Positions 23,054 through 43,509 of a DNA stretch of 43,509 bases are shown one piece after another. Each line of letters starts with the position of its first letter. Positions within the stretch are counted from its first letter, which is position 1. The notes beneath the pieces were generated by a model, which was given only the letters and a program-made list of their open reading frames with translations, was not told where the DNA came from and ran no database searches. The position numbers were made by a program, and so were the translations under genes. This DNA is from a virus (Duplodnaviria > Heunggongvirae > Uroviricota > Caudoviricetes), in IMG/VR virus record IMGVR_UViG_2703718810_000003. One strand, 5' to 3'.

Positions 23054-23058
23054 GCATG

Positions 23059-23084
23059 TAAAAAGGCTCCTGCAATGAGGAGCC
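23059..23084 (-). terminator. Minus-strand terminator downstream of structured element 1
   Basis: GGCTCCT-loop-AGGAGCC followed by U-run on minus strand; convergent with plus-strand terminator at 23028. Confidence 0.45.
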
Positions 23085-23112
23085 TGGATGTATGCCTAAT
23101 CTCTGTATACTA

Positions 23113-23226
23113 CATGGTGCCGGGTGCCTCCCGGTGAGTTCAGTATCAGCACCTGAACCCGCACAGAAAGGATAGAGTAGAAACACCTGCGCTGATATGC
23201 CCCTCCGCTCAGGGGGATTCACCATG
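23113..23226 (-). ncRNA. Structured RNA-like element, copy 1 (strand assignment tentative)
   Basis: CATGGTG...CACCATG closing helix enclosing hairpins CCGGGTGCCTCCCGG and CCCCTCCGCNCAGGGGG; three paralogous copies in window. Confidence 0.45.
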
Positions 23227-23321
23227 CAGAACTTTTTTAACAACTCCCCGTCAGACAGGCAAGCATCAACCATCTGAACTGTGAGGGATTTAACATTTAA
23301 CAACACAGCCTTTTCCCGCAC

Positions 23322-23346
23322 AAAAAAAGCCCCTCAGGAGAGGGGC
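23322..23346 (-). terminator. Minus-strand terminator downstream of structured element 2
   Basis: GCCCCTC-AGGA-GAGGGGC followed by 7 U on minus strand. Confidence 0.55.
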
Positions 23347-23373
23347 CGATCGCTGTGTATACACCATAAGCAG

Positions 23374-23485
23374 CATAGTGCCGGGTGCCTCCCGGTAGAT
23401 TCAGCCTGACTACTGAATCTGCGTATTGTGACCATCGCTATGGAGACCATGTCAGACGCCCCTCCGCACAGGGGGATTCACTATG
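23374..23485 (-). ncRNA. Structured RNA-like element, copy 2
   Basis: Closing helix here is CATAGTG...CACTATG: both strands changed compensatorily relative to copies 1 and 3. Confidence 0.45.
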
Positions 23486-23723
23486 CTGGCTCGTTTTTAC
23501 AAGACTTCCATCAATCAGACAATAGTCCATCAACCGAATTGTGAGTCATTTAACATTTCCATGAGGTAACTGATATCCAGCTAACAATCATCTGCAATGG
23601 ACGAAGCCAGTTCCAGAACTTGCCCACACTACAGCAACAACCACTGCATTCCAAAAATGGAATTTTGGGAGATTACTTCTGCAAACAGCTACCGATAAAT
23701 ATATCCCTGATTGCCTGCGCAGT

Positions 23724-23837
23724 CTGTTCAAAACGCCCGGTATCCAGCTCAACGCCTATAGCACGACGCCCCAGCGCCATCGCTGCTTTAACTGCCGAAC
23801 CCTACCCCATGAAGAAATCTGCAACCAGGCCACCCGG
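23724..23837 (-). pseudogene. Internal fragment of a second DNA methyltransferase gene (paralogous to 25255..25368), with in-frame stop
   Basis: ~114 bp near-identical to the 3' region of the intact methylase; translation PGGLVADFFMG*GSAVKAAMALGRRAIGVELDTGRFEQ. Confidence 0.7.
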
Positions 23838-23880
23838 CAGAAGGGAGACTACAGCCCGCAATTCGAAAAAGGCCGCGCAG

Positions 23881-23910
23881 TTGCGCAGAGTGATTACTAT
23901 GGGGTATTAT
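23881..23910 (+). promoter_or_regulatory. Sigma70-like promoter (TTGCGC-N18-TATTAT) of plus-strand unit 2
   Basis: Paralogous to 22949..22978. Confidence 0.45.
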
Positions 23911-23916
23911 TCGCCA

Positions 23917-23984
23917 GCTGAAATATTACTTCACGTTTTATTGTTTATTCCTTGCCGCCCGCGTCTCCCAGCGCGGGCTTTTTT
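23917..23984 (+). ncRNA. Candidate ~70-nt small RNA (plus-strand unit 2)
   Basis: Same U-rich body as unit 1; terminator stem sequence entirely different (GCCCGCG/CGCGGGC) but structure retained. Confidence 0.4.
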
Positions 23985-23990
23985 GTCCAT

Positions 23991-24014
23991 AAGAAAGCCC
24001 CTCCAGAGAGGGGC
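23991..24014 (-). terminator. Minus-strand hairpin downstream of structured element 3
   Basis: GCCCCTC-CAGA-GAGGGGC followed by UUUCUU on minus strand. Confidence 0.4.
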
Positions 24015-24042
24015 TGAAGCCGCATTTCTGTATCACCATGAA

Positions 24043-24167
24043 CATGGTGCCGGGTGCCTCCCGGTGAGTTCAGCCCGGTGACACTAAACCCGCGTATTCT
24101 CGCTTACGATCATCAAAGAGATCATACCGTTCACCAGTCGCCCCTCCGCACAGGGGGATTCACCATG
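24043..24167 (-). ncRNA. Structured RNA-like element, copy 3
   Basis: Same conserved 5' and 3' blocks as copy 1 with a different central insert. Confidence 0.45.
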
Positions 24168-24303
24168 CGAAATTTTTTTAACAAATGCCCAGTCTGACAG
24201 GCAACTGTCAACTTACTGAATTGTGAGGAATTTAACACTTCACAGCACAATATCTTTCCAGCACCCCAAAATCATCTGGACAGGAGAAAATCTTCTCCCC
24301 CAG

Positions 24304-25010: not shown

Positions 25011-25087
25011 TGGACCGCCATCGAGGACTCGAACCCCGCGCAGCCAGCTCCGAAGGCTGGCGCTCTATCCCGATGAGCTAATGGCGA
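25011..25087 (-). tRNA. tRNA-Arg (anticodon UCG by my reading of the loop CUUCGGA)
   Basis: Cloverleaf foldable by hand: 7-bp acceptor (U1-G72 wobble), D-arm GCTC/GAGC with GG, anticodon stem CCAGC/GCTGG, T-arm CGGGG-TTCGAGT-CCTCG, encoded CCA. Confidence 0.8.
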
Positions 25088-25096
25088 TATGTGATA

Positions 25097-25172
25097 TGGT
25101 GGCCCTTGCTGGATTTGAACCAGCGACCTGGCGATTATGAGTCGCTCGCTCTCACCACTGAGCTAAAGGGCC
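25097..25172 (-). tRNA. tRNA with CAU anticodon (Ile2-lysidine type like ileX/ileZ, or Met)
   Basis: GGCCCTTTAGCTCAGTGGTGAGAGCGAGCGACTCATAATCGCC...TTCAAATCCAGCAAGGGCCACCA; near-identical to my recollection of E. coli ileX. Confidence 0.85.
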
Positions 25173-37735: not shown

Positions 37736-37764
37736 AGCTACTCCTTAGTAAACACAGCAAAGAA

Positions 37765-37776
37765 TACCTATAGGTA
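37765..37776. promoter_or_regulatory. Operator-like 12-bp perfect palindrome TACCTATAGGTA in divergent promoter region
   Basis: Shares TACC...GGTA half-sites with sites at 37804 and 38301/38326. Confidence 0.5.
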
Positions 37777-37803
37777 AACAAAAGTCAATACCTTTGGGTT
37801 GTT

Positions 37804-37815
37804 TACCTTACGGTA
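37804..37815. promoter_or_regulatory. Operator-like site TACCTTACGGTA overlapping candidate repressor promoter
   Basis: Imperfect palindrome with the same half-sites; a third partial site TACCTATGG overlaps the repressor ATG. Confidence 0.45.
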
Positions 37816-37835
37816 ATCACATCTATTATTTACCT

Positions 37836-38300: not shown

Positions 38301-38337
38301 TACCCATGGGTATTTACTTTTTGGGTACCCATGGGTA
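38301..38337 (+). promoter_or_regulatory. Candidate pL with two perfect 12-bp palindromic operators TACCCATGGGTA (38301..38312 and 38326..38337)
   Basis: Palindromes spaced 25 bp centre to centre; TTTACT-N17-TATGCT promoter-like hexamers at 38313..38341 with the second palindrome in the spacer. Confidence 0.5.
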
Positions 38338-39147: not shown

Positions 39148-39336
39148 ATGGAAACGTTATTACCAAACGTTAATACGTCTGAAGGTTGTTTTGATATTGG
39201 TGTTCTGCTCAGTAATAAAGCGTTTACTGAGGATGCCATTAATATGCGGAAATATGAGCCTTATCTGCTCAATGATAATTCCATTCTTTCCCGAATTGCC
39301 CTTATTAAACTTGGTATTTTCGGAGAACGTCAATGA
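39148..39336 (+). CDS. Hypothetical 62-aa protein
   Basis: GAGGA RBS 8 nt upstream; AT-rich gene; followed by a 17-codon hydrophobic mini-ORF overlapping its stop. Confidence 0.35.
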   Translation: METLLPNVNTSEGCFDIGVLLSNKAFTEDAINMRKYEPYLLNDNSILSRIALIKLGIFGERQ

Positions 39337-39616
39337 CTTCAGCATTTGCACTGGTGATGACGGTTTTTCTTATAACGGGTGAATAACAGAATGTGATTAC
39401 CGGAATTTATGCCAGTAAAGAATCCTGCCTCCAGGCAAGAGACGAGCAAAAAATTTCTGGTGAATGCCTACCGGTAAAAAAAGTATCGCTGTACCTGAAT
39501 AACGAAACACCGGCTGGATAACCCGCCAGCCATATTAACGCCATACCAACGGATTAAAAATGCCAGCAATAGCAGGGATTCGTTCACCCTGAAATCTGTA
39601 ATGAGGTTAAAACACA

Positions 39617-42088
39617 ATGAATAAAATCTTTATTTGCGCTGCTATTCCTGACGAACAGGCCATAGAAGAAGATAGCGCTGTTGCGGTGGCCACTGCCATT
39701 GAAGCCGGTGATGAGCGTCGCGCACGCGCAAAATTTCACTGGCAATTTCTGGAGCAATTCCCGGCAGCTCAGGACTGCGCTTATAAATTTATTGTCTGCG
39801 AGGATAAACCCAGTATACCCCGCCCTGCCCTCGATTCCTGGGATACCGAATATATGCAGGAAAACCGCTGGGATGAGGAGTCTGCGTCCTTTGTCCCGGT
39901 CGAACCCGAATCCGATCCGATGAACGTCACTTTTGACAATCTGGCCCCTGAAGTACAGAACGCCGTCATGGTTAAGTTCGACGCATGTGAAAACATCACT
40001 GTTGATATGGTGATTAGCGCTCAGGAATTGTTGCAGGAAGACATGGCAACATTCGACGGCCATATCGTTGAAGCGTTGATGAAGATGCCAGAAGTTAACG
40101 CCATGTATCCGGAGCTTAAGCTGCATGCCATCGGGTGGGTTAAGCATAAATGTAAACCTGCTTCTAAATGGCCCGAAATTCAGGCAGAGATGCGCATCTG
40201 GAAAAAACGTCGCGAAAGTGAACGCAAGGAAACCGGGAAATACATATCTGTCGTTGATATCGCCCGTTCCAGAGTAAACCAACAGAACACTGAAAACGCT
40301 GCTGAAAAAACCGGGGCTGTCACTGTTGCCGTTCGCCGCGAATACAAACAGACATGGAAAACACTCGACAATGAACTGGCCTGCGCCCTCTGGCCCGGTG
40401 ATGTGGATGCAGGAAACATTGACGGTACCATCCATCGCTGGGCGACAAATGAGGTTATCGACAAGGATCGCGAAGACTGGAAGCGTATCTCAGCATCAAT
40501 GCGCAAACAGCCCGAAGCACTTGCCTATGACCGTCAGACTATTTTTGGCCTTGTTCGCGAACGTCCGATCGATATTCACAAAGATCCCGTTGCACTGAAC
40601 AAATATATCAGCGAATACCTGACGACAAAGGGCGTGTTTGAACATGAAGAAACAGACCAGAGCTCTGCTGATGCTCTCCAGTCACCAGCAGCACAAACTG
40701 CTCCAGTGGAGACGGCAGAATCCGATACTCAAAAAAATGAAATCCTGGTGGAAGCTGAACCATCTGTAGAGCGTGAAGGACCATTTTATTTCGTCTTTAC
40801 CGATAAGGGCGGGGAAAAATACGGCAGGGCAAACAAACTTTCTGGTCTGGACAGGGCGCTGGCTGCCGGCGGTACCGAAATCTCAAAAGAAGAATATTTT
40901 GCCCGAAAAAATGGCACATACACGGGCTTACCGCAAAATGTGGATAGCACTGAAGATTCCGAACAACCAGAGCCGGTAAAAGTTACCGCTGACGAAGTAA
41001 ACAAAATTATGCAGGCAGCCAATATCAGCCAGCCTGACGCCGATAAATTGCTTGCTGCATCACGTGGTGAATTTGTTGAAGGGATTAGCGACCCGGATGA
41101 TCCGAAATGGGTGAAAGGGATCCAGAGTCGCGACGCTGAGGACCAGAATCAGCCCAACGTGAAACAAAATGAGCCAGAAGCGGAACAAAACAGCCCGGAT
41201 ACGCAACAAAACGGGCCAGAAGAACAACAACCAGAACCAGCAGTGCAACAGGAACTGGAAAAAGTTTGCACCGCATGCGGTCAGACCGGTGGCGGCAACT
41301 GTCCTGACTGTGGTGCGGTGATGGGGAACGCAACCTACCAGGAAACATTCGATGAAGAGAATCAGGCTGAAGCTCAGGAAAATGATCCGGAGGAAATGGA
41401 AGGCACTGAACATCTGCACAAGGAGAACACTGTCAGCGATCAGTATCACGCCAGCGATAATAAAACTGGCGAAACAGCAAATCCCTTAATTAAAGTGAAC
41501 GGTCATCATGAAACCACATCCACCAGCAGGTTGTGGCACCATCTGATGATTGACCTTGAAACAATGGGAAAAAATCCTGATGCGCCAATAAACGCTATAG
41601 CCGGTAAGTTTTTTGATCCGGCAACCGGAGAGATGGGGCCAGAATTCAGCAAAACTATCGATCTGGAAACCGCAGGCGGGGTCATCGATCGGGACACCAT
41701 TAAGTGGTGGCTGAAACAGTCACGCGAAGCACAATCCGCCATTCTGACCGATGAAATCCCGTTGGATGATGCACTGCTGCAATTCCGGGAATTTATCGAC
41801 GAAAACTCCGGTGAATTTTTTGTTCAGGTCTGGGGTAACGGTGCAACTTTCGACAACGTGATTTTACGCCGTTCATATGAACGGCAGGGGATCCCCTGCC
41901 CGTGGCGTTACACCAATGATCGCGATGTAAGAACGATGGTTGCTCTGGGACTGGTGATGGATTTCGACGCAAGAACGACTATTCCATTCGAAGGTGAACG
42001 CCATAACGCGCTGCACGATGCGCGTTACCAAGCAAAATACGTTTCAGCCATCTGGCAAAAACTGATCCCGAGTCAGGCTGATTTTTAA
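39617..42088 (+). CDS. Large exonuclease: acidic ~600-aa N-terminal region plus C-terminal DEDDh (DnaQ-like) 3'-5' exonuclease domain
   Basis: C-terminal motifs MIDLETMG (Exo I), VWGNGATFDNVIL (Exo II), HNALHDARYQAKY (Exo III); upstream region rich in D/E/Q; located where lambda carries exo/bet/gam and Rac carries recET. Confidence 0.7.
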   Translation: MNKIFICAAIPDEQAIEEDSAVAVATAIEAGDERRARAKFHWQFLEQFPAAQDCAYKFIVCEDKPSIPRPALDSWDTEYMQENRWDEESASFVPVEPESDPMNVTFDNLAPEVQNAVMVKFDACENITVDMVISAQELLQEDMATFDGHIVEALMKMPEVNAMYPELKLHAIGWVKHKCKPASKWPEIQAEMRIWKKRRESERKETGKYISVVDIARSRVNQQNTENAAEKTGAVTVAVRREYKQTWKTLDNELACALWPGDVDAGNIDGTIHRWATNEVIDKDREDWKRISASMRKQPEALAYDRQTIFGLVRERPIDIHKDPVALNKYISEYLTTKGVFEHEETDQSSADALQSPAAQTAPVETAESDTQKNEILVEAEPSVEREGPFYFVFTDKGGEKYGRANKLSGLDRALAAGGTEISKEEYFARKNGTYTGLPQNVDSTEDSEQPEPVKVTADEVNKIMQAANISQPDADKLLAASRGEFVEGISDPDDPKWVKGIQSRDAEDQNQPNVKQNEPEAEQNSPDTQQNGPEEQQPEPAVQQELEKVCTACGQTGGGNCPDCGAVMGNATYQETFDEENQAEAQENDPEEMEGTEHLHKENTVSDQYHASDNKTGETANPLIKVNGHHETTSTSRLWHHLMIDLETMGKNPDAPINAIAGKFFDPATGEMGPEFSKTIDLETAGGVIDRDTIKWWLKQSREAQSAILTDEIPLDDALLQFREFIDENSGEFFVQVWGNGATFDNVILRRSYERQGIPCPWRYTNDRDVRTMVALGLVMDFDARTTIPFEGERHNALHDARYQAKYVSAIWQKLIPSQADF

Positions 42089-42152: not shown

Positions 42153-42401
42153 ATGGCAAGACTTATTCTTCTCACTGAGTGGGCAAAAGAGGAATTCAGT
42201 GACCCGGTCCCGACTCCGGGCACGTTAAGTAAATACGCTAAAGCCGGAATGATATTTCCTCTCCCCAAAAAAGTTGGAAGACACTGGCGAGTGGATCCTC
42301 GAGCTCGCTTTGTCGGAATGGTAAACAAGCCGGAAGTGATCGCCACAGATCACCCTGCTTTGAAGAGGATACTGGAAGATGGCGCGCCCACGAAAATATA
42401 A
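42153..42401 (+). CDS. xis: Excisionase
   Basis: 82-aa basic protein immediately upstream of and overlapping int. Confidence 0.7.
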   Translation: MARLILLTEWAKEEFSDPVPTPGTLSKYAKAGMIFPLPKKVGRHWRVDPRARFVGMVNKPEVIATDHPALKRILEDGAPTKI

Positions 42402-43509
42402 AACTGAAGTTCCGGGATTATCTCCGTATTTTGACAAAAGAAATAACAAAGTTTACTGGCGTTACAGGCATCCCATAACAGGAAAAAATCACGGACTCGG
42501 CAGTATTGACCAGAAACAGGCAGAAGCTATTGCAGCAGAAGCGAACAGCCGTCTTGCCAGGCAACAAATGGAACAAATGCTCAGTCTGCAGGAGAAAATT
42601 ATTAGTGATACCGGTAGTCCATCAACCGTTTCTGCTTTTCTGAATAGTTACCGAAAAATTCAACAGGAAAGATATGAAAACGGAGAGATCAAACTCAACA
42701 CACTGAAACAGAAAGCATCCCCTCTCAGAGTATTTGATGAACGTTTTGGTACCAGACCATTAGATGCCATAACCGTAAAAGATGTGGTATCGGTGCTGGA
42801 AGATTACAAGGCAAAAGGACATAACAGAATGGGACAAATTTTCAGGAAAGTACTGATCGATGTTTTCCGGGAGGCCCAGCAAACGGGCGATGTCCCGCTA
42901 AGCTTTAACCCTGCAGAATCGGCAAAAAAACCACAGGTACGGATATCACGGCAACGACTGACCTTTGATGAGTGGATGATGATTTATAATGCAGCGGAAA
43001 AGGATGGTTACTTTTTACAGCGTGGTATGCTGCTGGCACTGATGACAGGCCAGCGCCTTTCAGATATTTGCAAAATGAAATTTTCGGATATCAGGGATGG
43101 TTATCTTCATGTCGAACAGCAAAAAACAGGAACCCGGATTGCCATCCCTCTGGCTCTGCGTTGCGATAAATTAAATCTCACCCTGGATGATGTGGTGTCA
43201 TCCTGTCGCGATTGCGTTCTTAGTCCGTGGCTATTGCACCACCATCATGCTAAAGGGACAGCTAAGCGCGGCGGGATGGTTAAGCCAGCAACGTTAACCG
43301 TTGCATTTAAAAAAGCCCGGGATTCTGTGGATTACAACTGGCGTGCTAATGGCACCCCACCCTCTTTCCATGAGCAGAGATCTTTATCAGAACGATTGTT
43401 CAGAGAACAGGGAATTGATACCAAAATTTTGCTGGGCCATTCGAATCAAAAAATGACCGATATTTACAACGACGCACGCGGTAAGGAATGGAAAAAACTG
43501 GTCATTTGA
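42379..43509 (+). CDS. int: Tyrosine integrase (lambda Int family)
   Basis: 376 aa; C-terminal catalytic region ...MTGQRLSDICKMKFSDI...GYLHVEQQKTG...HEQRSLSERL...LLGHSNQKMTDIY aligns with lambda Int catalytic region as I recall it; stop codon is the last three bases of the window. Confidence 0.9.
   Translation: MARPRKYKTEVPGLSPYFDKRNNKVYWRYRHPITGKNHGLGSIDQKQAEAIAAEANSRLARQQMEQMLSLQEKIISDTGSPSTVSAFLNSYRKIQQERYENGEIKLNTLKQKASPLRVFDERFGTRPLDAITVKDVVSVLEDYKAKGHNRMGQIFRKVLIDVFREAQQTGDVPLSFNPAESAKKPQVRISRQRLTFDEWMMIYNAAEKDGYFLQRGMLLALMTGQRLSDICKMKFSDIRDGYLHVEQQKTGTRIAIPLALRCDKLNLTLDDVVSSCRDCVLSPWLLHHHHAKGTAKRGGMVKPATLTVAFKKARDSVDYNWRANGTPPSFHEQRSLSERLFREQGIDTKILLGHSNQKMTDIYNDARGKEWKKLVI

What the first reader, a model, noticed from the sequence alone, without database searches (positions are those of the whole stretch)
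39617..42088. 823-aa early-left-operon exonuclease with DnaQ-like DEDDh domain and long acidic N-terminal region, without a recognisable annealase partner
The position corresponds to lambda exo/bet or Rac recE/recT, but the catalytic domain carries 3'-5' DEDDh motifs (DLET, FD, HxALxDA) rather than a lambda-Exo-type fold. No Bet/RecT-like gene lies between it and xis. The ~600-aa Asp/Glu-rich N-terminal region could be a DNA mimic or interaction scaffold. Function could be recombination, host nuclease antagonism or anti-defence.
Basis: partly seen in the sequence, partly recalled or inferred. Interest (0 to 1): 0.65.

Follow-up and report, generated by a model that had tools for sequence, protein, structure and literature searches.

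The report
Common prophage RecE-like 3'-5' exonuclease
This is a real, intact gene for a large prophage exonuclease that is already annotated in about two thirds of complete E. coli genomes: a RecE-like scaffold carrying a DnaQ/DexA-type 3'-5' nuclease instead of the usual RecE nuclease, with no annealing partner and no experimentally known role.

Summary
Window 39617-42088 (+) is an intact 823-aa gene, the last gene of the early-left operon before xis/int of an ompW-integrated lambdoid prophage. Residues 641-813 are an Rv2179c/DexA-like DEDDh 3'-5' exonuclease (Pfam E 7e-62) with all five catalytic residues intact. The N-terminal 640 aa are acidic (net -54). No annealase was found anywhere in the window.

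It is not new. PHROG 2082 matches it end to end. PGAP calls it "exonuclease" or "3'-5' exonuclease". Homologues cover at least 80% of it in 3535 of 5426 complete E. coli genomes. K-12 ydfE is its IS2-truncated N-terminus.

The N-terminal region is not a plain DNA mimic. It holds three confidently predicted folded domains (Pfam YdfE_N/YdfE_C) under purifying selection, then a disordered acidic linker with a Cys4 knuckle that is 67% identical to RecE.

In relatives, the same scaffold carries a RecE-type PD-(D/E)XK nuclease followed by RecT, or a weakly Rad52-like domain. The DEDDh version lacked an annealase in all five gene contexts examined.

The most likely role is 3'-end DNA processing in the phage recombination slot. 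An anti-phage role like the DexA homologue EcD is a live rival. The function is untested.

The parts
39617..42088 (+). Complete CDS, 823 aa plus stop: RecE-family scaffold fused to a DEDDh 3'-5' exonuclease
   Evidence: ORF list. PHROG 2082 matches 1-823 of 823. PGAP CDS in a 99.9%-identical copy. dN/dS 0.18 against phage Tritos.
39617..40228 (+). Folded domain 1 (aa 1-204): an alpha/beta subdomain followed by a helical bundle; YdfE_N-type. This is the part retained in the K-12 pseudogene ydfE.
   Evidence: AF2 block-mean pLDDT 72-96. dN/dS 0.10. tblastn to K-12 ydfE gives 86.7% identity over aa 1-255. Homologues carry precomputed PF27430, named YdfE_N.
40229..40348 (+). Low-confidence linker (aa 205-244) at the end of the basic patch
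   Evidence: AF2 pLDDT below 50 at 205-213 and 225-237. dN/dS 0.29. Charge profile.
40349..40636 (+). Folded helical domain 2 (aa 245-340), YdfE_C-type. It is weakly shared with RecE and with the Exonuc_VIII-type proteins.
   Evidence: AF2 block-mean pLDDT 82-92. dN/dS 0.11. BLASTP to RecE 295-376, E 8e-5. 30-36% identity to the P0136 family at their aa 350-517.
40637..40777 (+). Acidic disordered linker (aa 341-387)
   Evidence: AF2 pLDDT 26-46. dN/dS 0.83.
40778..40921 (+). Small beta-hairpin/helix domain (aa 388-435) holding the most conserved motif of the scaffold (GPFY...RANK)
   Evidence: AF2 block-mean pLDDT 81-89 over aa 391-430. G388, P389, F390, Y391, R404, A405, N406 and K407 are invariant in 51 sequences. 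dN/dS 0.12.
41036..41488 (+). RecE-homologous acidic, Q/N/E/P-rich linker (aa 474-624)
   Evidence: 67% identity to Rac RecE 471-614. NCBIfam NF007259 matches only aa 453-625. Net charge -22 over aa 501-640. AF2 shows it mostly disordered.
41267..41311 (+). CxxC-x7-CxxC knuckle (C551, C554, C562, C565), a probable zinc-binding element shared with RecE
   Evidence: Motif positions. Conserved in RecE. dN/dS 0.03. Metal binding is inferred, not shown.
41537..42055 (+). DEDDh 3'-5' exonuclease domain (aa 641-813), Rv2179c/DexA-like. Catalytic residues are D646, E648, D746, H796 and D801.
   Evidence: Pfam PF16473 E 7e-62. PDB sequence hit to 8kel, which PMC12153337 identifies as T4 DexA, E 6.5e-6. 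Catalytic residues 98-100% conserved among 63 homologues. dN/dS 0.10.
39148..39336 (+). Upstream operon neighbour: dicB (62 aa)
   Evidence: PGAP annotation of the 99.9%-identical prophage. PHROG 1251.
39393..39521 (+). Upstream neighbour: DUF1482/YdfD-like small ORF (42 aa)
42153..42401 (+). Downstream neighbour: excisionase. Only 64 nt of non-coding DNA separate it from the exonuclease gene, so no annealase gene fits between them.
   Evidence: ORF list. PGAP annotation.
42379..43509 (+). Integrase (376-aa ORF ending at the window edge). In the near-identical genome ompW follows.

Best explanation
The gene encodes a modular, RecE-family early protein of a lambdoid (PPompW/Qin-type) prophage.

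Architecture, from N to C terminus:
- three folded scaffold domains (Pfam YdfE_N/YdfE_C);
- a disordered acidic linker with a Cys4 knuckle, inherited in common with RecE;
- a catalytically intact DEDDh (DnaQ/DexA/Rv2179c-like) exonuclease.

Shown: the architecture, intact catalytic residues, purifying selection on every folded module, homology to RecE, and absence of an annealase.

Inferred: the enzyme is a Mg2+-dependent 3'->5' exonuclease that acts on DNA 3' ends. It is transcribed with the dicB-type early-left operon after derepression. It fills the phage's recombination and DNA-end-processing slot.

The scaffold appears to be a swappable delivery platform. In relatives it carries a 5'-3' PD-(D/E)XK nuclease with RecT next door, or a weakly Rad52-like domain.

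The DEDDh version would therefore trim or resect 3' ends of linear phage or foreign DNA without its own annealase. It would rely on spontaneous annealing, on host functions, or on annealases from co-resident prophages.
For: Identity:
- PF16473 E 7e-62; D646, E648, D746, H796 and D801 are invariant.
- The nearest solved relative by sequence is the DNA exonuclease T4 DexA, 8kel (PMC12153337).
- A 189-aa protein matching the published features of EcD is 37-39% identical to aa 644-816, and EcD is reported to be a DNA exonuclease (PMC12153337).

Link to RecE:
- 67% identity over aa 474-624; NF007259 gives a partial match only.

Shuffling of scaffold and effector:
- YdfE-type N-terminus with DUF3799 PD-(D/E)XK nuclease in P0140, L023 and L024, with RecT immediately downstream at E 1e-39 and 9e-30.
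- YdfE-type N-terminus with a ~285-aa domain that hits Rad52_Rad22 weakly in 5 of 5 members. In its contexts it is flanked by Gam-like and Sipho_Gp157 genes.
- RecE's own Exonuc_VIII N-domain with DEDDh in P0124, P0127 and P0136.

DEDDh variants are followed directly by xis/int, with no annealase, in 5 of 5 contexts.

Every folded module is under purifying selection: dN/dS 0.03-0.12, against 0.29-0.83 in the linkers.

No sigma-70-like promoter was found directly upstream. The only hits are the divergent pair at 37761-37829.

The RecE N-terminal region is of unknown function, but full-length RecE boosts linear-linear recombination (PMC11611040).
Against: - No enzymatic or genetic data exist for this protein, and polarity and substrate are inferred from homology alone. 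The Pfam family's namesake, Rv2179c, is named an exoribonuclease.
- A 3'-5' nuclease destroys the 3' tails that canonical annealase pathways use. A recombination role without a partner is therefore not obvious.
- Stand-alone homologues sit in many unrelated early-region contexts: next to a DNA methyltransferase gene in a P2-like phage, next to helicase and primase genes in 9NA, and in an N15-like phage. The nuclease is therefore not tied to recombination modules.
- The related E. coli protein EcD was reported to defend against T4 (PMC12153337).
- The Rad52-like assignment is below Pfam's threshold (17.5 bits against 20.3).
- The AF2 model of the nuclease domain was poor, with pLDDT 40-63.
Confidence: 0.45

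Rival explanations
1. Anti-phage defence or superinfection exclusion of the HREX/EcD type. The DEDDh domain would degrade incoming modified (for example 5hmC) phage DNA from its 3' ends while sparing host DNA. The prophage keeps the gene because it protects the lysogen.
For: - PMC12153337 reports that bacterial DexA homologues are commonest in Escherichia, Citrobacter and Klebsiella. Those are the same genera that carry this fusion.
- The same paper reports that EcD digests T4/5hmC DNA but not unmodified dsDNA, and protects E. coli from T4.
- A 189-aa protein matching the published EcD features is 37-39% identical to aa 644-816.
- The gene occurs in 3535 of 5426 E. coli genomes, with a median of 2 places per genome. 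It stays intact in a remnant Citrobacter prophage.
Against: - The proposed 5hmC-recognition tryptophan (DexA W152, EcD W132) is Thr766 here.
- The Asp that EcD has replaced by Ala (DexA D90) is retained, as D717/D718.
- EcD is a 189-aa stand-alone protein, not an 823-aa fusion.
- The gene lies inside an early operon with no promoter-like site of its own. From my own knowledge, the dicB operon of Qin is repressed by DicA, so the gene is probably silent in the lysogen.
- PADLOC gave no real match: E 0.029, 12 bits.
- The EcD data rest on plasmid expression in a single paper.
Confidence: 0.2
2. Counter-defence or host-takeover nuclease. Made early after induction or infection, it would remove host nucleic acids that threaten the phage, such as ssDNA or msDNA of retrons, signalling oligonucleotides, or 3' ends used by host nucleases. 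This would be analogous in position to Gam, Kil or Ral.
For: - It is an early-left operon accessory gene next to dicB.
- In relatives the same slot lies beside Gam-like and KilR genes.
- The fast-evolving acidic linkers (dN/dS 0.6-0.8) are compatible with interaction arms races.
Against: - No homology to any named anti-defence protein appeared in the PHROG, Pfam or PDB searches.
- Nothing points to a specific target.
- The scaffold is shared with bona fide recombination proteins.
Confidence: 0.12
3. RNA-directed 3'-5' exoribonuclease. It would either trim 3' ends of RNA phage genomes, as the prophage-borne TONDO/ISG20-like DEDDh enzymes with auxiliary domains do, or process phage or host transcripts.
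For: - The Pfam family is named for the Rv2179c exoribonuclease, and NCBI names many homologues "3'-5' exoribonuclease".
- PMC13344964 shows that prophage-encoded DEDDh enzymes with auxiliary domains defend against MS2 and Qbeta.
Against: - The closest characterised relatives by sequence (T4 DexA and EcD) are DNases (PMC12153337).
- TONDOs were picked as ISG20 homologues. The authors describe them as distinct from other defence-associated DEDDh domains, and no sequence link was tested here.
- The fusion partner and the slot belong to DNA recombination proteins.
Confidence: 0.08
4. Nucleotide scavenging, like one of the roles of T4 DexA. It would degrade DNA fragments to mononucleotides for phage replication.
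For: Homology to DexA. PMC12153337 states that host-DNA scavenging is one of DexA's roles.
Against: - From my own knowledge, temperate lambdoid phages do not degrade the host chromosome.
- Scavenging would not need a 640-aa conserved scaffold shared with RecE.
Confidence: 0.05

Closest known systems
RecE (exodeoxyribonuclease VIII) of the Rac prophage, with RecT
   Same: - Same operon slot, the last large early-left gene before xis/int.
- Same overall plan: a long N-terminal region of unknown function, an acidic linker and a C-terminal nuclease.
- 67% identity over the linker and Cys4 knuckle (aa 474-624), and weak similarity in the YdfE_C-like helical domain.
- Hybrids exist in both directions.
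   Different: - The nuclease is DEDDh with 3'-5' polarity, not PD-(D/E)XK with 5'-3' polarity.
- The N-terminal domain is YdfE_N, not Exonuc_VIII (PF06630).
- No RecT follows.
- The NCBIfam RecE model scores 253.7 bits against a cutoff of 1269.
- The common annotation "exodeoxyribonuclease VIII" is therefore a misnomer.
YdfE (K-12 Qin prophage pseudogene); Pfam YdfE_N (PF27430) and YdfE_C (PF27432); PHROG 2082
   Same: - K-12 ydfE is the first 255 aa of this protein at 86.7% identity, in the same dicB-ydfD context.
- PHROG 2082 matches end to end.
- 96%-identical homologues carry PF27430, PF16473 and PF27432.
   Different: - K-12 ydfE is cut off by IS2 and lacks the nuclease.
- No functional study of YdfE turned up in the searchable literature.
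T4 DexA and the E. coli DexA homologue EcD (HREX; PMC12153337; PDB 8KEL/8KEN)
   Same: - Same DEDDh subfamily (Rv2179c-like) with the same catalytic residues.
- DexA matches at E 6.5e-6.
- The EcD-like 189-aa protein is 37-39% identical over 183 aa.
   Different: - Those are stand-alone proteins of about 190-227 aa, whereas this domain is the C-terminus of an 823-aa fusion.
- The DexA W152 equivalent is Thr766.
- The D90 equivalent is retained.
Rv2179c (the exoribonuclease that gives Pfam PF16473 its name)
   Same: Namesake of the Pfam family that the C-terminal domain matches over its full length, 1-177 of 177.
   Different: - It is a single-domain mycobacterial protein, named by Pfam as an exoribonuclease.
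- It gave no hit in the PDB sequence search at E <= 1, so it is more distant than DexA.
TONDO / ISG20-like prophage DEDDh exonucleases (PMC13344964)
   Same: A DEDDh nuclease plus an auxiliary domain of unknown function, encoded on prophages and other mobile elements.
   Different: - They were selected by homology to ISG20 and act on RNA phage 3' UTRs.

Membership tests
DEDDh (DnaQ-like) 3'-5' exonucleases, Pfam PF16473 Rv2179c-like | Profile match above the curated threshold over the whole domain | tested here: met
   208.7 bits against a cutoff of 27, E 7e-62, profile positions 1-177 of 177.
DEDDh (DnaQ-like) 3'-5' exonucleases, Pfam PF16473 Rv2179c-like | Exo I D-x-E, Exo II D and Exo III H-x4-D catalytic residues | tested here: met
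   D646, E648, D746, H796 and D801 are present and 98-100% conserved among 63 homologues.
DEDDh (DnaQ-like) 3'-5' exonucleases, Pfam PF16473 Rv2179c-like | RNase H-like alpha/beta fold | tested here: inconclusive
   The AF2 model of aa 641-823 reached only pLDDT 40-63 because the alignment was shallow there. Foldseek gave no DEDDh hit.
DEDDh (DnaQ-like) 3'-5' exonucleases, Pfam PF16473 Rv2179c-like | 3'->5' metal-dependent exonuclease activity; DNA or RNA substrate | not testable with these tools
   Requires an enzyme assay.
RecE / exodeoxyribonuclease VIII (NCBIfam NF007259) | Equivalog score above the cutoff | tested here: not met
   253.7 bits against a cutoff of 1269. Only aa 453-625 match, to model positions 446-602.
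RecE / exodeoxyribonuclease VIII (NCBIfam NF007259) | C-terminal PD-(D/E)XK nuclease (PF12684/DUF3799) | tested here: not met
   No hit in the window protein. Rac RecE and P0140 do hit it.
RecE / exodeoxyribonuclease VIII (NCBIfam NF007259) | N-terminal Exonuc_VIII domain (PF06630) | tested here: not met
   No hit. The domain is present in Rac RecE and in P0124, P0127 and P0136.
RecE / exodeoxyribonuclease VIII (NCBIfam NF007259) | Adjacent RecT annealase | tested here: not met
   Only a 64-nt gap separates the gene from xis. No annealase family was found in 20 early ORFs.
RecE / exodeoxyribonuclease VIII (NCBIfam NF007259) | Shared acidic linker with a CxxC...CxxC knuckle | tested here: met
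   67% identity over 151 aa.
YdfE family (Pfam PF27430 YdfE_N, PF27432 YdfE_C; PHROG 2082) | Homology to K-12 YdfE and to the family profiles | tested here: met
   86.7% identity to ydfE over aa 1-255. PHROG 2082 matches 823 of 823 positions. Both Pfam families are precomputed on 87-96%-identical homologues. The local Pfam copy lacks these two models, so they were not scored directly.
HREX / EcD-type anti-T4 DexA homologues (PMC12153337) | Conserved DEDDh catalytic residues | tested here: met
HREX / EcD-type anti-T4 DexA homologues (PMC12153337) | Loss of the tetramer-forming Asp (DexA D90 replaced by Ala78 in EcD) | tested here: not met
   The window protein has D717/D718 at this position. 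The alignment is slightly uncertain in this loop.
HREX / EcD-type anti-T4 DexA homologues (PMC12153337) | Proposed 5hmC-recognition Trp (DexA W152, EcD W132) | tested here: not met
   Thr766 aligns here (PWRYT against PWCYW in EcD and PCKFW in DexA).
HREX / EcD-type anti-T4 DexA homologues (PMC12153337) | Selective digestion of 5hmC DNA and protection from T4 | not testable with these tools
   Requires biochemistry and plaque assays.
Known anti-phage defence systems (PADLOC-DB v2.0.0) | Match to any defence-protein model | tested here: not met
   The only hit covers 23 residues at 12.2 bits, E 0.029.
Acidic DNA-mimic proteins (Ocr/ArdA-like) | Strongly acidic composition | tested here: met
   Net charge -54 over aa 1-640.
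Acidic DNA-mimic proteins (Ocr/ArdA-like) | Compact fold presenting a DNA-like charge array; structural similarity to known mimics | tested here: not met

The most novel reading that the evidence does not exclude
The YdfE/RecE N-terminal scaffold may be a general targeting platform of lambdoid phages. It would deliver interchangeable DNA-end effectors to one cellular site or partner: a 5'-3' PD-(D/E)XK nuclease with RecT, a Rad52-like annealase, or a 3'-5' DEDDh nuclease. On this reading the DEDDh version is a previously unrecognised, annealase-independent pathway that resects DNA 3'->5'. It could serve recombination or destroy foreign DNA. It would also explain the long-unexplained N-terminal 600 aa of RecE.
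Probability: 0.2. Interest if true: 0.55.

Novelty: already known. Interest (0 to 1): 0.3.

Why it matters
As a sequence feature it is ordinary. It is one of the commonest prophage genes in E. coli and is already in Pfam, PHROGs and RefSeq.

Its value is as a pointer in three directions:
- Thousands of copies are mislabelled "exodeoxyribonuclease VIII", although they lack the RecE nuclease and RecT.
- The N-terminal region of RecE, used daily in recombineering and still of unknown function, belongs to a scaffold that nature recombines with at least three different effectors. That gives a comparative handle on what the scaffold does.
- A 2025 report that E. coli DexA homologues defend against T4 did not mention that these genes are prophage-borne. 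It also did not mention that many are C-terminal domains of RecE-like fusions. That changes how the claim should be tested.

Tried and rejected
- DLP12 exoD as a fragment of this family: rejected, no similarity.
- DicF sRNA upstream, as in Qin and Tritos: not found at the Rfam gathering score or at E <= 1.
- PADLOC defence models: no real hit.
- AF2 of the nuclease domain: low confidence, so it was not used.
- PDB profile search with the Rad52-like C-terminal domain (alignment A1): no hit. Only sub-threshold Pfam Rad52_Rad22 hits support that assignment.
- Literature. "PF16473" returned no papers. "Rv2179c" with "phage" returned nothing relevant. "ydfE" returned no functional study. One search was wasted on word-start matching of "RecE" to "receptor", and one failed on a term that was too short.
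- Exact identity of EcD (HAK9828821.1) could not be fetched. It was inferred from the published primers (MIDTET start) and the reported Ala78. Both match a 189-aa protein found on six IMG/VR viral contigs.
Full report
**Observation.** The ORF at window 39617-42088 (+) is real. It has an ATG start, encodes 823 aa, and has a GAGG ribosome-binding site about 10 nt upstream. The same start and stop are annotated by PGAP in 99.9%-identical E. coli copies as "exonuclease" or "3'-5' exonuclease".

The window is a lambdoid prophage of the PPompW/Qin type. In the nearest genome the order is repressor-like gene, DUF1391 gene, dicB, DUF1482 gene, this gene, xis, int, then ompW.

Pfam finds one domain: PF16473, the Rv2179c-like 3'-5' exoribonuclease, at aa 641-813 with E 7e-62. 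In an alignment with 63 diverse stand-alone homologues (38-60% identity) these five residues are 98-100% conserved.

The first 640 aa are acidic: D+E is 18.9%, net charge is -54 and pI is 4.6. There is a basic patch at about aa 151-250, and aa 501-625 are very acidic and rich in Q, N, E and P.

**No annealase.** Only three small ORFs (50, 62 and 42 aa) lie between the repressor gene and this gene, and 64 nt separate it from xis. Twenty early-region ORFs gave no RecT, Bet, Erf, Sak or Rad52 family in PHROGs, and ten of them gave none in Pfam either. PGAP lists none in the near-identical prophage.

**How ordinary it is.**
- PHROG 2082 ("exonuclease") matches all 823 positions.
- Megablast finds at least 80% coverage in 3535 of 5426 complete E. 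coli genomes, with a median of two places per genome and a maximum of nine.
- It also occurs in phages Tritos, HannyBb, PhiR42_1, mEp460 and the PPompW series.
- Homologues carry the precomputed Pfam architecture PF27430 + PF16473 + PF27432. A later look-up names the first and last of these YdfE_N and YdfE_C.
- The K-12 Qin pseudogene ydfE is the first 255 aa of this protein at 86.7% identity, cut off by IS2.
- I found no paper on YdfE function.

**Relation to RecE.** BLASTP against Rac RecE gives 67% identity over aa 474-624, which includes a CxxC-x7-CxxC knuckle. There is also a weak match at aa 262-352. The NCBIfam RecE equivalog matches only aa 453-625 and scores 253.7 bits against a cutoff of 1269. 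The protein lacks both Pfam domains of RecE, namely Exonuc_VIII and the DUF3799 PD-(D/E)XK nuclease. Many deposited records call it "exodeoxyribonuclease VIII", and that name is wrong.

**Anatomy of the N-terminal region.** An AlphaFold2 model of aa 1-440, built from 51 sequences, has a mean pLDDT of 79. It predicts three folded units:
- aa 1-204, an alpha/beta subdomain plus a helical bundle;
- aa 245-340, helical;
- aa 388-435, beta-hairpins plus a helix, carrying the invariant GPFY...RANK motif.

The stretches between these units, and aa 438-640, are predicted to be disordered.

Evolutionary rates agree with these boundaries. Against the phage Tritos copy, dN/dS is 0.10-0.12 in the folded units and in the nuclease, 0.03 in the Cys4 knuckle, and 0.29-0.83 in the linkers.

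**Modular shuffling.** A search of 1.84 billion cluster representatives found 10617 relatives. Most are stand-alone nucleases of about 180 aa. The long relatives show recombination of modules:
- The YdfE-type N-terminus occurs with DEDDh (this protein, P0123).
- It occurs with the RecE-type PD-(D/E)XK nuclease (P0140, P0157).
- It occurs with a ~285-aa domain whose five sampled members all hit Pfam Rad52_Rad22 weakly, at E about 0.003 and 17.5 bits against a cutoff of 20.3, at the motif KKSLTDAxKKALSLLGFSADVWLGLYD.
- It occurs with a short domain of unknown function (P0129).
- RecE's own Exonuc_VIII N-domain occurs with DEDDh (P0124, P0127, P0136).

The gene contexts are consistent with this:
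- PD-(D/E)XK variants have RecT immediately downstream in Rac, L023 and L024.
- DEDDh variants are followed directly by xis/int in the window, Tritos, vB_EcoS-689R5, Citrobacter and Atlantibacter.
- The Rad52-like fusions sit between Gam-like and Sipho_Gp157 genes with no nuclease gene next to them.

**The nuclease domain elsewhere.** tblastn finds it in 644 phage records. Most are stand-alone genes in various early regions: a P2-like phage next to a DNA methyltransferase gene, an N15-like phage, 9NA next to helicase and primase genes, and a Salmonella lambdoid phage next to int.

The only solved relative found by sequence is 8kel/8ken, which PMC12153337 identifies as T4 DexA and its S87A/D90A mutant (E 6.5e-6). 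That paper reports three things:
- DexA is a 3'-5' DNA exonuclease.
- "Bacterial" DexA homologues are commonest in Escherichia, Citrobacter and Klebsiella.
- One of them, EcD, digests 5hmC and T4 DNA but not unmodified dsDNA, and protects E. coli from T4 when expressed from a plasmid.

Using the published EcD primer I found a 189-aa protein on six viral contigs. It starts MIDTET and has Ala78, as reported for EcD. It is 37-39% identical to aa 644-816 of the window protein. In the window protein the DexA W152/EcD W132 position is Thr766, and the D90 position keeps Asp. The two features that paper uses to define the defence-type enzyme are therefore not met here.

**Most likely mechanism.**

Shown: an intact DEDDh active site on a conserved RecE-family scaffold, located in the recombination slot, without an annealase.

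Inferred: a metal-dependent 3'->5' exonuclease that acts on DNA ends and is expressed with the early-left operon. No promoter-like site lies directly upstream of the gene.

The same scaffold carries two kinds of recombination effector in relatives. The most economical reading is therefore that the scaffold targets an interchangeable DNA-end effector to a common site, and that this version trims or resects 3' ends. I put this at about 0.45.

The rivals are HREX-like defence (0.2), counter-defence or host takeover (0.12), an RNA-directed nuclease as in the TONDO report PMC13344964 (0.08), and nucleotide scavenging (0.05).

**Verdict.** The feature is an already catalogued, very common prophage gene whose biology is uncharacterised. 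The modest interest lies in the scaffold-effector shuffling and in what it could say about the unexplained N-terminus of RecE, which is described as of unknown function in PMC11611040.

Noticed in passing
L008-L012 (Salmonella and Klebsiella prophages); proteins P0138, P0144, P0146, P0169, P0223: The YdfE_N/YdfE_C scaffold is fused to a ~285-aa C-terminal domain. That domain gives sub-threshold Rad52_Rad22 hits in 5 of 5 members. The gene is flanked by Gam-like and Sipho_Gp157 genes. These proteins are annotated "exodeoxyribonuclease VIII" but have no recognisable nuclease domain. They may be scaffold-annealase fusions.
   Followed up: partly
Proteins P0129 and P0153: A further short C-terminal module (...LTIAA(L/I)xGLCANP...) replaces the nuclease on both the YdfE-type and the Exonuc_VIII-type scaffolds. 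Its function is unknown.
   Followed up: no
window 41267-41311: A CxxC-x7-CxxC knuckle inside the otherwise disordered acidic linker. It is conserved with RecE and is the slowest-evolving segment of the gene (dN/dS 0.03). It is absent from some relatives (P0123, P0127).
   Followed up: partly
window 42074-42085 (protein C-terminus ...PSQADF): From memory, the C-terminal tail resembles the internal beta-clamp-binding motif QADMF of Pol III alpha. The tail is kept in E. coli-type homologues (P0123, P0124) but not in more distant ones (P0136 ends ...RLTAN). This could be chance.
   Followed up: no
window 23054-24197 (-): Three tandem copies of the Rfam sRNA family STnc100 (121-169 bits) lie upstream of the SASA-family esterase gene.
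   Followed up: no
window 25011-25172 (-): Two phage-borne tRNA genes: Arg (anticodon TCG) and one with a CAT anticodon. ARAGORN calls the second Met, and PGAP calls it Ile in the related genome.
   Followed up: no
window 34704-36047 (-): The DnaC-like helicase-loader gene is split into two ORFs (35301-35756 and 35781-36047), and the DUF1627 gene is short. PGAP marks both as pseudogenes with internal stops in the near-identical prophage. The prophage may be replication-defective even though the exonuclease gene is intact.
   Followed up: partly
window 29611-31466 (+): A PAPS-reductase-like gene and an IbrB/ParB-like gene form a pair that is oriented against the surrounding early-right genes. 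This looks like a moron cassette.
   Followed up: no
window 38301-38337 (+): A 16-bp-stem hairpin with a T-rich tail lies directly after the repressor-like gene and ahead of the dicB-type operon. No DicF sRNA was detected between it and dicB, unlike in Qin and Tritos.
   Followed up: partly
L017-L019 (Citrobacter): A remnant prophage abutting an ars operon retains an intact 823-aa Exonuc_VIII+DEDDh gene next to int. This suggests selection for the gene in decayed prophages.
   Followed up: no
L028, L033, L043, L044, L046, L049 (IMG/VR viral contigs): The EcD-type 189-aa DexA homologue, reported as a bacterial defence gene in PMC12153337, is found on viral contigs. That paper does not mention prophages. 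Its "bacterial DexA homologues" are probably largely prophage genes, including RecE-like fusions such as this one.
   Followed up: partly
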